A stretch of DNA of 64,000 nt. Origin: Octopus vulgaris. Lineage: Eukaryota. The position numbers were made by a program, and so were the translations under genes. The stretch is taken from contig OX597816.1 in the NCBI GenBank assembly GCA_951406725.2, positions 25,172,001 to 25,236,000 on the forward strand. The letters are read 5' to 3'. Below are positions 20,501 to 32,500 of the stretch, in pieces (positions within the stretch are counted from its first letter, which is position 1; the number at the start of each line of letters is the position of its first letter). The notes below the pieces were generated by a model, which had not been told where the DNA came from, ran no database searches, and worked only from the letters and a program-made list of their open reading frames with translations.

Positions 20501-23500
20501 TTTGTTCGTCTACCGTCTCTTGTCAACCGATGTTGGTGTATTTACGTCCCCGTAACTTAGCGTTCAGTAAAATGAATAAAAGAAAAAAGTTTTATGCTTC
20601 ATATTTCTGAAATCATTTCTTTTTTTTCATGGTGTAAGTAAAGGAGAAACAGGGGAGACAAAAGAAAAATATAAAGAGACAGAAACCAAAATAGAAAATA
20701 AAGACAATTAATTTGGTATTAATGAAAGGAAACCCTACTGTTATTGTATTGTAAAAGTACATAAGACTGTGCAATAGGAATTTTATTTGTTCTTTTATGC
20801 GTTAGTTAATCCATGCCATAGCAGACCTTGCAAGAACGGTGGCGTATGTATTGGAAGAGGACGGAGCTTCAGCTGTAAATGCCGAGCTGGATATAGCGGA
20901 CGAAACTGTCATGCATGTGAGTATTGCATTGAAAACTATCATATATTATAGATTTTAACGATACTTTTACAAGTGCAGAAGGAGGTGCAAAGGAGGTGAG
21001 GTAGAAGCTTCATTTATGTATGAAAACGAAGGTGAATGGATGAATAGCTTCGTGTAAATATCAGTGTACGATTTTGGAAATCATCTGGATGTTATGTTGA
21101 ATAACAACAACAACAACAATAATAATAATAATAACAACCACAACAACAACACCAAAAATTACCTTAGGACTGAGGATCCAGGTTCGAAATTTCCCCAAGA
21201 CACCTGTAGAAGGCTGGAGGGTATATAAGCCGAAACGTTGTGTTAACAACAAACAAGATGATGATAAATATCCGTCGAATGTAAATAATGTAAATAATGT
21301 ACCCGTTGTATATATATATATATATATATATATATATATATGTGTCTATGTATGCCTATATTTGACTCTGCCCACACCATCGCCTGACAACATCAACGTT
21401 TCTGAAATCCAATTTTTTTCATGCTGTAAGTGAGGGAATTATAGGGGAGACAAAAGAAAACCATACAGAGAGAGAGAGAGAAGCAAAAATAGAAAATCAG
21501 TTAAGACAATGAATGGGGCATTAATAAATGGAAACCCTACTGTTATTGAATTGTAAAAATACATAAGAGTGTGAAATAGGACTTTTATTTGTTCTTTTAT
21601 CGTGCTAGTTAATCCATGCCATAGCAGACCTTGCAAGAACGGTGGCGTATGTATTGGAAGAGGACGGAGCTTCAGCTGTAAATGCCGACCTGGATATAGC
21701 GGACGAAACTGTCATGCATGTGAGTATAGCATTGCAACAGAATCATATTTTATAGCTATAGATTAAGGATACTTTTACAAGTGCAGAAGTATTGCAAAGA
21801 AGCTGAGGTAGAAGCTTCATTTATGTATGAAAAGGAATGTGATTGGATGAATGGCTTCGTGTAAATAATAAGAGGATACAGCTCTGGGAGTCATTCAGAT
21901 GTTATGTTGAACAACAACAACAAACACACACACACACACTCTCTCTCACATACACACTCACCTACAAACATACACACACACACACCTGCAAACACACACA
22001 CACATACACACACATACACGCACGAAACCCCTACATTCATATTTGCATATATATATATTCATACAGATACACAGATATACATACATACATACATACATAC
22101 ATACATACATACATATATACACACATATATATATATATATATATATATATATATATTATATATGTCTGTGTATGTATTTATATATGTGTGTGTGTGCCTA
22201 TATCTGACCGCCACCACCATTGCCCGACAACCGATTTTGGAGTGTTTACATCCCCGTAACTTAGCGGTTCAGCAAAATTTACTAGTTAAAATAAGTACTA
22301 AGCTTACTACAAGTAAGTCTTGGGATCAATTTCTTCCACGAAATCACTTTAAGGCAGCGCTCCAGCATGTCCACAGACTGAAATGATAAAAGAATAATGT
22401 TTTATGCTTAGCATTTCCGAAATCTTTATTTGTCATGCTGGGAGACAAAAGAAAATCATGCAAAGAGGGAGAGAGAGAGAGAGAGAGAGAGAGAGAGAGA
22501 GAGAGAAGCCAAAATGGAAAATCAGTAAAGACAATTAATGGGGCATTAATAAAAGGAAACCCTATTATTATTGCATTGTAAAAATACATGAGACTGTACA
22601 ATAGGACTTTTATTTGTTCTTTTATGCGGTAGTTAATCCATGCCATAGCAAACCTTGCAAGAACGGTGGCGTATGTATTGGAAGAGGACGGAGCTTCAGC
22701 TGTAAATGTCGGCCTGGATATAGCGGACGAAACTGTCATGCATGTGAGTATAGCATTGCAACAGAATCATATTTTATAGCTATAGATTAAGGATACTTTT
22801 ACAAGTGCAGAATGAGCTGCAAAGGAGGTGATGTAGAAGCTTCATTTATGTATGAAAATTATGTGATTGAATGAATGGCTTCGTGTAGGTCATACGAGGA
22901 TACAGCTTTGGAAATCATTTGGATGTTGTGTTGAACGACAACAACAAACATGCACGCGCAAACACACACACACATACACACGTAGAAACATATAAGCATG
23001 TATACACGCATGCACGCACGCACGAACCCCCCATAGACAATGATATTTACACGTATAAATATTCATGAATACACATATACATGCATATATATATATATAT
23101 ATATTTCTTTACTACCCACAAGGGGCTAAACACAGAGAGGACAGACAAACGGGTTAAGTCGATTACATCGACCCCAGTGCGTAATTGGTACTTAATTTAC
23201 CGACCCCGAAAGGATGAAAGGCAAAGTGGACCTCGGCGGAATTTGAACCCAGAACGTAACGGCAGACGAAATACAGCTACGCATTTCGCCCGGCGTGCTA
23301 ACGTTTCTGCCAGCTCGTGTGACTGCGTGGTAAGAAGTTTGCTTCCCAAGCATGTGGTATTAGGTTCAGTCCCACTGCGTGGCGCCTTCCGCAAGTCTCT
23401 GCAGCCTCGGGCCATCAAAATCTTTGTGAGCAAATTTGTTAAACGGAAACTGAATGAAACCCGTTGTATATACAGTTCTAATACGTCCAAGTGCTGTTAG

Positions 23501-29500: not shown

Positions 29501-32500
29501 TGGATAGTTTTTTCAATAGGATCTTGTGATCGACCCTGTCGAAGGCCTTACTGAAATCAAGGTAGATGATATCGGTGTTGGAGCCCTCTCCCAAAGCTCT
29601 CAAAATGTCCTCAAAGTGATGCAGGAGCTGCGTTAGGCAGTCCCTTCCATTACGGAACCCATGTTGGTTGGAGATCAGCCGTCTGTTGCTTTCCAGAAAT
29701 TGGGTTATTCGAGATCTCACCACCCTCTCAAATACCTTGATGATATGAGAGGTGAGTGAGATCGGACGGTAATTCACTGCAAGGGACTTGTTTCCCTTTT
29801 TGAAAACTGGGACAACAGACTGGGACAGAAGGTTTTTGGAATATAGCCAGCATCCAGTGAGTTTCTCCACAGATTAACAAGGGGAGATGCAAGTTGGTGT
29901 CGACACACCTTCAGGACACAAGCAGGGAACCTATCGGGGCCTACTGCTGAATTGTGTTTTATTTCATTTATCGCCGCTAAGACATCAGGGGCACTAAACG
30001 TTATGTCCGATATAGTGTGTTGACATCACTGATACAGCCCAGATCGGCCATATCAGGATTGCTGAAAACAGAGCAGTATTGTTTCTGCAGTATCTCGGCC
30101 ATGGATTTGGCGTTATCTTGGAGAGTGCCAGTTTCATCAATTAGAGGGCCAACAATGGAGACAGTGACCCTGCGTTTCCTCGCAAATGAAAATAACACTT
30201 TGGGGTTGAGTTTGATTTTTTCAATGGCCCACTTCTCCTCAGCTGATCTTTGGTTATTGATGAGGGTCTTCATGCATTGTTGGAGGTTATATTTTTTGGA
30301 TTCAAGCAGTGCGATAGCCGTCGAATGTGTGTGTTGGCAGTACTTTAGTTTGTTAATTTTTTTGTTTGTTCTTTTTATTTTTCTGATAATGGTTTTTCTG
30401 TTTTGGGGGATTCTGCACTTTTTGTTCACAGGTCTTGGTGGGGAGTGTTTTGCACATATGTCTGTATATATATATATATATATATATATATATATATATA
30501 TATATATATATATGTATGTATATGTGTGTATATATATACATACATATATATATATATATATATATATATTATATATATGTATGTATATGTGTGTATATAT
30601 ATACATACATATATATATATATATACACATATACATACATATATATAAATATATATATATATATATATATATGTATATATATATATATACACACATATAC
30701 ATACATATATATAAATATATATATATATATATATATATATATATATATATATATATGATCACTGGTGTGGCTGCATGGTAAGAAGTTTGCTTCCCAACCA
30801 CGTGGTATTAGGTTCAGTTCCACTGAATAGCACCTTCCGCAAGTGTCATCTACTATAGTCTCGGGCCGCCAACAACAACGATAATGATAATAATAATAAT
30901 AATAATAATAATAATAGAGGCTGTAACTGAAGGAGAAAATGTAACCATTCTGTGCGACTTTCCAGTACATACAGACCGAACCATCAAGGCCAATAAACCA
31001 GATATTGTTGTGAAAGACCAAAACAATAAAGTTTGCTTATTGATCGACATGAGTATCCCCTGTGATCATAATATCTCAGCGAAAGAGTTTGACAAGCTCA
31101 GAAAATATAAAGACCTACTCATTGAAATTGAGAAAATGTGGCATCTCAAGGCGGTTACAATACCAGTGATCGTAGGAGCACTAGGAATGATCAAGAAGGG
31201 AATTGAAAATTATATGAGAATGATCCCTGGCTTACCATCCCTGCAAGAAGTGCAAAAGATTGTCTTAACTGGTACATCACACATATTGAGAAGAGCATTG
31301 TCGATGTGAGAACTGTTGCTGCTCATGTATTTTAATTTAACTTTAAAAAAAATGAAAAAAAAAAAAAAATGAACGAACTATTGAGTTTGGTTTAATGGCC
31401 TACCAATGTATACTATGAGTTTCTTTGCCCTAGGAGTCGGGAAGACACTCGGCAAGAAATGGAAGCAAATTTGAAAGAAGAAAAAAAAAGTAATAATAAT
31501 AATAATAATAATAATAATAATAATAATAATAATAATAATAAAAACATCGAAAAATATCTTAGGAGGGAAAACCCAGGTTCGAAATTTCCCCTACGATACC
31601 AAATGAAGGCTGGAGGGTATATCAGCCGAAACATTGTGTTAACAACAAACAAGATGAAGAAAAATATCCGTCCAATGTGAATAATATACCCGGTATATAT
31701 ATATATATGCGTGTGTGTATGTATGTGTGTGTGTGTGTGCCTATATGTTGTCTCCTCCCACACCATCGCCTGACAACCTTCACGTTTCTGAGTGGGGGAG
31801 AAATAGGGAAGACAAAAGAAAAACAAAGAGTGAGAGAGAAAAATGGAAAATAATTAAAGACAATTAATGGGGTATTAATGAAAGGAAATCCCACTCTTAT
31901 TGCATTGTAAAATTACATAAGACTGTGAAATAGGACTTTTATTTGTTCTTTTATGCACTAGTTAATCCATGCCATAGCAGACCTTGCAAGAACGGTGGCG
32001 TATGTATTGGAAGAGGACGGAGCTTCAGCTGTAAATGCCGACCTGGATATAGCGGACGACACTGTCATGCATGTGAGTATAGCATTGAAAAGAATCATAA
32101 TTTATAGCCATAGATTAACGATACTTTTACAAGTGCAGAAGGAGCTGCAAGGGAGCTGAGGTAGAAGCTTGATTTATGTATGAAAAGGAATGAGATAGGA
32201 TGAATGGCTTCATGTAAATAATGTCAGAATACAATTTAGGAAATCATTTGGATGTTATGGTGGAGAACAACAGCAAACACACGTACAAACACACACACGC
32301 ACGCACGAACCCTTCCCACACACTGATATATATATGCTTGTATATTTTCCATAATAGCAACGATATAATATATCCTTGGTAATAAGCAAAAGTGTCGTAA
32401 GTCCAAAACATTGCTTTTTCAGAAAACGAAAAATAGTTTCACCATTCCATTTCTTTTTTACCTTAGCAGCAGTTTCAGCTTAACAATAATACTTTGTTGG

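What the first reader, a model, noticed from the sequence alone, without database searches (positions are those of the whole stretch)
21130..31690. Hammerhead-like cassette co-amplified in four introns of the EGF array, on the sense strand
A cassette of about 170 bp after (AAT)n recurs at about 21140, 24430, 27440 and 31540. The 24486-24531 copy folds as a minimal type I hammerhead with a palindromic ACGU stem III; the others have core mutations (CUGUAGA, CUGGUGA, AAAUGA). Established: Penelope-like pLTRs carry minimal hammerheads that cleave best as dimers. Inference: tandem copies in one pre-mRNA could pair in cis and cut the transcript, and loss of the core in three of four copies might reflect selection against this.
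Basis: partly seen in the sequence, partly recalled or inferred. Interest (0 to 1): 0.7.

Follow-up and report, generated by a model that had tools for sequence, protein, structure and literature searches.

The report
Decaying Penelope ribozyme, copied with exons
The four cassettes are the end of a very common jumping gene carrying a predicted self-cutting RNA motif, which likely landed once in an intron and was copied along with the repeated EGF exons; they are no more damaged than copies elsewhere in the genome, so this is likely ordinary repeat decay.

Summary
Observation confirmed, interpretation mostly not. Four sense-strand copies lie in 4 of the 8 introns of a nine-exon EGF sub-array; 24486-24531 fits the minimal type I hammerhead pattern. 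The cassette is the 3' end (pLTR) of an abundant Penelope-like element: it follows the endonuclease region in 22 of 24 loci picked without the cassette; about 54,000 copies are estimated. Copy 2 keeps the RT/endonuclease fragment, a tRNA-like head and a 12-bp target duplication. All four share one 3' junction whose exact form matches once in the genome, so one insertion was co-amplified. Selection against cleavage is not supported: the core is intact in 1 of 4 here against 19 of 53 cassette-blind genomic copies; core substitutions 4/43 against 36/502 elsewhere, p=0.54. The double-hammerhead fold is predicted less stable than two monomers, and array exons appear spliced in probable RNA contigs. 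Cleavage was not tested. The scan noted this family before on other DNA (e1-8669850, e1-8669779).

The parts
21150..21301 (+). Copy 1 of the PLE 3' end; hammerhead 21199-21244 with A6U and a helix II mismatch; everything upstream of the (AAT)n lost
23460..23471 (+). Left copy of the 12-bp target-site duplication, inside an intronic SINE-like repeat
23472..23482 (-). Short inverted piece of the element's extreme 3' tail at the left junction
   Evidence: matches the reverse complement of the family's last bases
23483..24315 (+). 5'-truncated, broken Penelope-type ORF: RT C-terminal part and GIY-YIG-type endonuclease region, several stops and frameshifts
   Evidence: 68-80% identical to stop-free copy L063:925-1815, whose longer relatives carry PF00078
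24342..24414 (+). tRNA-like segment with A-box-like (24349-24359) and B-box-like (24394-24403) motifs, part of the pLTR
   Evidence: box consensus recalled; ARAGORN and Rfam do not call it a tRNA
24436..24585 (+). Copy 2 of the PLE 3' end, lacking the last ~30-bp tail
24486..24531 (+). Intact minimal type I hammerhead motif; predicted cut 24526/24527
24586..24597 (+). Right copy of the target-site duplication; the same junction, exact or decayed, ends copies 1, 3 and 4
27443..27602 (+). Copy 3; hammerhead 27493-27535 with A6G and a 3-nt deletion in helix III; ORF and tRNA-like head deleted
31544..31690 (+). Copy 4; hammerhead 31595-31640 with U4A, G5A and a broken palindrome; same left deletion as copy 3
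30919..31490 (+). Unrelated later insertion (3' end of a LINE-like ORF, 135 open codons) inside the (AAT)n run of copy 4
   Evidence: no Pfam match at cut-off; class recalled from motifs
19326..32072 (+). Host: nine near-identical 111-bp EGF exons (19326, 20806, 21609, 22633, 24843, 25885, 26836, 27864, 31962) within a longer EGF exon array
   Evidence: (PF00008, E 1e-7); covered by probable RNA contigs

Best explanation
The four cassettes are the 3' terminal repeat of an abundant Penelope-like retroelement carrying a predicted minimal hammerhead ribozyme; one copy likely inserted into an intronic repeat, was likely duplicated with the EGF exon units, and has likely decayed neutrally since. 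Shown: the cassette follows the element's endonuclease region genome-wide; copy 2 has the ORF fragment, inverted tail piece and 12-bp target duplication; all four share one 3' junction and one downstream deletion; damage matches the family background. Inferred: insertion by target-primed reverse transcription, spread by unequal crossing-over soon after insertion, loss of the left part in three units by deletion at (AAC)n/(AAT)n runs. In the active element the hammerhead would work as a dimer between tandem pLTRs to process the element's own RNA (literature model); in the host pre-mRNA these copies likely cut rarely or not at all and are spliced out.
For: Family: 40 of 40 scored hits of 3271 candidates at 90-100% identity, on many contigs; 23 hits in 14 of 120 content-blind 10-kb stretches, ~54,000 copies (Poisson 34,000-81,000). 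PLE link: cassette <450 bp downstream of the endonuclease region, same strand, in 22 of 24 loci found with a query lacking the cassette; relatives of the ORF carry PF00078 in 3 of 4 hits; 9 of 14 random sites are inverted pairs, 6 of these 9 with a 9-15-bp flanking duplication. Single insertion: junction pattern has 1 exact match in 2.8 Gb, copy 1; none of the 94 non-window copy ends printed shows it; empty sites at 20050, 25403, 26459; shared downstream deletion absent from empty units; pairwise divergence 0.115-0.151 equals that of neighbouring intron sequence, mean 0.135. Neutral decay: core intact 1 of 4 vs 16 of 41 and 3 of 12; fully intact motif 1 of 4 vs 3 of 41; core substitutions 4/43 vs 36/502, p=0.54, and vs background core 18/420, p=0.14. 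Dimer fold -24.3 kcal/mol vs -26.0 for two monomers (copy 2 pair), -18.8 vs -25.0 (copies 1+2). Papers: metazoan minimal hammerheads show no monomer and low dimer cleavage (PMC4209133); slow hammerhead cuts in introns did not block splicing (as reported in PMC2995048).
Against: Four copies give little power; modest selection cannot be excluded. Within the 46-nt motif the window's substitutions fall on the core more than on the rest (4/43 vs 3/134, p=0.06, post hoc), and all three damaged copies are hit at positions 4-6 of the core. The motif as a whole is less substituted than its flanks in the window (7/177 vs 33/368, p=0.036, post hoc), not seen in the background. The copies share almost no derived bases (0-2 per pair), so common descent rests on junctions. 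Pfam, PDB and Rfam scans did not name the ORF pieces or the motif directly. Nearest-neighbour energies omit tertiary contacts.
Confidence: 0.88

Rival explanations
1. One reading: same-strand copies in one pre-mRNA paired in cis, cut the transcript, and selection removed the core in three of four.
For: After duplication at least two intact copies probably coexisted 3-4 kb apart (star-like divergence); 3 of 4 cores are hit; core vs rest of motif p=0.06; fast intronic ribozymes can block splicing (reported in PMC2995048; PMC10919898).
Against: Frequency of intact cores equals background. Large deletions spared the hammerhead in three units. Copy 1 keeps ACGU, U17 and helix I, so its core change would not protect it from a copy 2 catalytic strand (structure; inference). 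Dimer fold predicted unfavourable; dimers of this class cut slowly. Same-strand copies occur at ~10 per Mb genome-wide, so the situation is common.
Confidence: 0.06
2. Independent insertions, or gene conversion of the cassette's 3' part, into the same site of paralogous introns rather than duplication of whole units.
For: Few shared derived bases among copies; three different left junctions; exons show signs of homogenisation.
Against: Same truncated 3' end, same junction and same downstream deletion in all four; the junction pattern occurs once in the genome, so it is not a hot spot. Conversion between units cannot be separated from unequal crossing-over here.
Confidence: 0.04
3. Copy 2 is retained as a functional element (a regulated intronic cut, or a Pol III transcript from its tRNA-like head).
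For: 0 substitutions in 45 motif positions against 8 in 92 flanking positions; only 3 of 41 background copies are as intact; it alone keeps the A/B-box-like head.
Against: With 7% fully intact background copies, one of four is unremarkable; no intact partner in cis; no RNA evidence specific to this copy (depth there comes from the whole family).
Confidence: 0.02

Closest known systems
Minimal type I hammerheads in pLTRs of metazoan Penelope-like elements (Cervera and de la Pena 2014, PMC4209133; read parts 1-2 of 4)
   Same: [quoted passage not shown]
   Different: Helix II 6 bp rather than 7-8; U at position 17; copy number ~54,000 for one family against thousands per genome in that paper; a tRNA-like segment and (AAT)n precede the motif; not tested for cleavage.
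EN+ PLEs of the Penelope/Poseidon type (Craig et al. 2021, PMC8557442; read introduction and 11 passages)
   Same: RT followed by a C-terminal GIY-YIG-type region with two cysteines between the half-motifs, no CX2-5CxxC linker seen, inverted 5'-truncated copies, a ~30-bp tail at one end only, variable target duplication, hammerhead near the 3' end.
   Different: No full-length copy or tandem pLTR arrangement was examined; clade not tested by phylogeny.
Intronic ribozymes that affect host splicing, e.g. CPEB3 (PMC10919898; abstract and passages)
   Same: Self-cleaving motif on the sense strand of an intron.
   Different: CPEB3 is a conserved monomeric HDV-like ribozyme with a measured 2-3 min half-life; these are recent transposon remnants needing a partner, with no conservation signal.
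Schistosoma SINE-like repeats with promoter plus hammerhead (figure legend passage in review PMC6765202)
   Same: Promoter-like segment followed by a hammerhead.
   Different: Here the segment is the end of a protein-coding PLE, not a stand-alone SINE (22 of 24 loci).

Membership tests
Minimal type I hammerhead (PLE type) | Core CUGANGA ... GAAA ... UH with helices I and II | tested here: met
   Copy 2 only; copies 1, 3, 4 fail
Minimal type I hammerhead (PLE type) | Extra nucleotide after A9, G10.1-C11.1, palindromic 15.2-16.2 | tested here: met
   against features in PMC4209133
Minimal type I hammerhead (PLE type) | Covariation in helices I and II | tested here: inconclusive
   Within the family stems decay like flanks (37/802 vs 148/3094 non-CpG). 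A second family (4 of 7 descriptor hits in 1.2 Mb) has different helix I/II sequences with the same core and ACGU; no formal covariation count was run.
Minimal type I hammerhead (PLE type) | Self-cleavage as a dimer | not testable with these tools
   Only folding energies, which disfavour the active dimer
Rfam hammerhead families | Covariance-model match | tested here: not met
   No hammerhead model at E<=10 on 24320-24600; none among the 150 of 302 rows shown
EN+ Penelope-like elements | RT ORF with C-terminal GIY-YIG endonuclease bearing the CCHH motif | tested here: met
   Motifs read by eye in L063:925-1815 against PMC8557442; PF00078 on 3 of 4 longer relatives. Direct Pfam scans of the fragments gave no hit.
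EN+ Penelope-like elements | Hammerhead-bearing pLTR downstream of the ORF; inverted 5'-truncated copies; target duplication | tested here: met
   22 of 24; 9 of 14 inverted pairs, 6 of 9 with 9-15-bp duplication; 12 bp at copy 2
EN+ Penelope-like elements | RT phylogeny placing it in a PLE clade; full-length tandem copy | not tested
   No full-length copy was fetched
Non-LTR retrozymes | Non-coding tandem repeats, each with a hammerhead, giving circular RNA | tested here: not met
   Copies are separated by host exons and derive from a coding element's end; definition from the abstract listing of PMC7229834 and recall

The most novel reading that the evidence does not exclude
Tandem exon duplication put several transposon-derived dimer-dependent hammerheads into one pre-mRNA, and the one intact copy (24486-24531) still cuts itself or copy 1 (intact ACGU, U17 and helix I) in cis, modulating splicing of the EGF array; selection thinned the other cores to tune this.
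Probability: 0.05. Interest if true: 0.6.

Novelty: new member of a known kind. Interest (0 to 1): 0.17.

Why it matters
As it most likely stands it is one more remnant of a very abundant Penelope-type family, useful mainly as a marker of how the EGF array expanded. If cis cleavage were real, it would be a natural case of dimer-dependent transposon ribozymes acting on a host pre-mRNA, and with ~54,000 copies of the family many genes would be exposed. The family makes that general question testable (strand bias and core decay of intronic pairs), but this locus gives no positive sign.

Tried and rejected
Rfam scan of the whole window: 302 matches, the 150 shown are repeat-driven miRNA-type noise; narrow scan, no hammerhead or tRNA. 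ARAGORN: 0 genes. Pfam on ORF fragments: no family at cut-off; PDB sequences: nothing. Phage collection: no match. Protein atlas: not answered. The 29 best-hit loci were left out of the null because they were chosen by likeness to copy 2 (30 of 43 cores intact); L001, L051 and L177 were left out as the window itself; copies not spanning the whole motif were left out (7 of 23 random hits, 5 of 30 in the endonuclease-selected set, 5 of 17 in the protein-selected set). Run search: no RNA holder listed on record; all 24 rows are guessed RNA, contigs only, so transcript ends and cleavage cannot be seen; exon 22633 had no cover, which shows nothing. Lunse et al. (dimer cleavage of PLE hammerheads) is not held; seen only as a citation in PMC6765202. 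Rejected: stand-alone SINE (collinear with the ORF in 22 of 24), retrozyme array, chance motif (0 hits in 25 shuffles), insertion hot spot. Literature searches for an octopus Penelope hammerhead report, a tRNA-derived/Pol III pLTR and selection on intronic retrotransposon hammerheads listed no such paper; the library lacks most subscription journals. No supplements were read; those of PMC4209133 may list related motifs.
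Full report
Observation. The window holds four copies of a ~160-bp cassette, all on +, at 21150, 24436, 27443 and 31544, 83-87% identical to copy 2, each behind an (AAT)n/(AAC)n run. The host is an array of EGF exons on + (Pfam PF00008); nine are 111 bp, AG/GT-flanked and 98% alike, and the cassettes sit in 4 of their 8 introns. Copy 2 carries a complete minimal type I hammerhead pattern at 24486-24531. My descriptor finds only this hit in the window and none in 20 shuffles. 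The stated core changes in copies 1, 3 and 4 are right; copy 3 also lacks 3 nt of helix III and copy 4 has lost the palindrome. The fold is not unusually stable (z -0.78) and a competing hairpin covers the cut site in the centroid. Rfam has no matching model.

What it is. The window lies on contig C3 of a 2.8-Gb genome; earlier notes of the scan call it an octopus, which I did not check. The cassette is a dispersed repeat: 3271 candidates, the 40 scored all 90-100% identical; 23 hits in 14 of 120 ten-kb stretches taken at round coordinates, blind to content, give about 54,000 copies (34,000-81,000). Upstream of copy 2 lies a broken ORF (23483-24315) and a tRNA-like segment (24342-24414) with A- and B-box-like motifs (consensus recalled; not called by ARAGORN or Rfam). 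A search with 23900-24435, which lacks the cassette, gave 24 other loci; in 22 the cassette follows the endonuclease region on the same strand within 450 bp. A stop-free copy (L063) shows two cysteines between the GIY- and YIG-like half-motifs and no extra linker finger, the Penelope/Poseidon layout of PMC8557442; 3 of its 4 longer relatives carry PF00078. Direct Pfam and PDB scans of the fragments named nothing. Nine of 14 random sites are back-to-back pairs, 6 of the 9 with a 9-15-bp flanking duplication. These are the described marks of PLE insertions. The motif matches the minimal hammerheads of PMC4209133 feature by feature. A second family in the same genome has the same core with other helix sequences, which supports the structure across families; within this family the stems simply decay.

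History in the array. Copy 2 is a whole insertion: a 12-bp duplication at 23460-23471 and 24586-24597, a short inverted tail piece at the left and no tail at the right. The target is a SINE-like repeat whose empty site survives at 20050, 25403 and 26459. All four copies end at the same junction, exact or decayed, and share a downstream deletion missing from the empty units. The junction pattern has one exact match in the genome, copy 1. Pairwise divergence (0.115-0.151) equals that of nearby intron sequence (mean 0.135). One insertion followed by unit duplication is therefore the simplest reading; few shared derived bases (0-2 per pair) suggest the duplications came early. Copies 3 and 4 share a left deletion and copy 1 has another, each ending in the microsatellite; these removed the ORF and tRNA-like head and kept the hammerhead. 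A LINE-like fragment later entered copy 4's (AAT)n.

Test of selection. The null is copies chosen without regard to the motif that span it fully: 16 from random stretches (5 cores intact), 25 from endonuclease-selected loci (11), 12 from protein-selected loci (3): 19 of 53, against 1 of 4 here. P(<=1 of 4) is 0.49 at 16/41 and 0.83 when the palindrome is also required (8/41). Fully intact motifs are 3 of 41, so copy 2 is among the best kept. Core substitutions in the window are 4/43 against 36/502 at other sites (p=0.54) and 18/420 in background cores (p=0.14). Against my reading: core against the rest of the motif is 4/43 vs 3/134 (p=0.06), and the motif is less substituted than its flanks (7/177 vs 33/368, p=0.036); both are post hoc, point in different directions, and rest on four related copies. 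Power is low, so weak selection is not excluded; it is not needed.

Could they cut in cis? The double hammerhead scores -24.3 kcal/mol for two copy-2 units against -26.0 for the monomers and -30.6 for the best cofold; for copies 1+2, -18.8 against -25.0. Such energies omit tertiary contacts. In a double hammerhead each catalytic strand cuts the partner, so copy 1, with ACGU, U17 and helix I intact, would remain a possible substrate for copy 2: its core change is not the protective one (inference). Published metazoan minimal hammerheads showed no monomer activity and low dimer activity (PMC4209133), and slow hammerhead cuts inside introns were compatible with splicing whereas a fast HDV ribozyme was not (second-hand, passages of PMC2995048). 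In runs guessed to be RNA, a 141-nt contig matches the 111-bp exon with 0 differences in 4 of 4 runs while the intron bins 24610-24773 have no depth; one contig joins the end of a 15757-type exon to it; a 1051-nt contig chains exons 33311, 36200 and 37251 without introns. The array thus appears transcribed and spliced, but the nine exons cannot be told apart and contigs cannot show cleavage.

Verdict. Real feature, known kind: a new member of the hammerhead-bearing Penelope-like elements, passively multiplied by exon-unit duplication. The scan reported this family and its tRNA-like head before on other DNA (e1-8669850) and the genome-wide abundance of such motifs (e1-8669779); I had reached the PLE reading before that look-up, and those notes are not independent support. 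Nothing was noted near this place. Papers seen: PMC4209133 parts 1-2 of 4; PMC8557442 introduction and passages; PMC6765202, PMC2995048, PMC10919898 passages; others as search listings only. Interest 0.17.

Noticed in passing
window 19326-32072: The nine exons differ by 1.9% on average and about 4.5% at synonymous sites, while adjacent intron sequence differs by about 13%: a hint of exon-limited homogenisation.
   Followed up: partly
family-wide; window 27526-27535: A 3-nt deletion next to the predicted cut site recurs in 12 of 44 cassette-blind copies and in copy 3; it could follow CpG decay plus slippage, or mark an amplified subfamily without a working ribozyme.
   Followed up: partly
family-wide: CpG positions in the cassette are substituted about 3-8 times more often than other positions (39/248 vs 148/3094 outside the motif; 15/40 vs 37/802 in stems), as expected if copies are methylated.
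   Followed up: partly
L096:6096(-), L124:5108(-), L138:7402(+), L153:2599(+): A second minimal-hammerhead repeat family with a 4-bp helix II and the same ACGU palindrome; 4 hits in 1.2 Mb.
   Followed up: partly
window about 57595-57545, minus strand: Another hammerhead-like motif between (TA)n runs, with an 8-nt palindromic helix III and an imperfect base of helix II; it does not pass the descriptor.
   Followed up: no
L115, L135, L137, L041: Inverted pairs often turn around at short palindromes of the element; L135 and L137 turn within a few bases of the predicted cut site.
   Followed up: no
window 37251-37361: Contig 2 of run X1 carries this exon type three times in a row, more than the window shows; exon copy number may vary, or similar exons lie elsewhere.
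   Followed up: no
G000:C3:25.28-25.31 Mb and 25.52-25.71 Mb: Further EGF exon arrays lie near the window, one with about a dozen identical hits spaced ~1.26 kb.
   Followed up: no
window about 28320-30440, minus strand: A ~2-kb LINE-like RT fragment in the intron that holds copy 4 (read; class recalled).
   Followed up: no
window 922, 40246: Two EGF exon-like pieces with in-frame stops, probably pseudo-exons.
   Followed up: no
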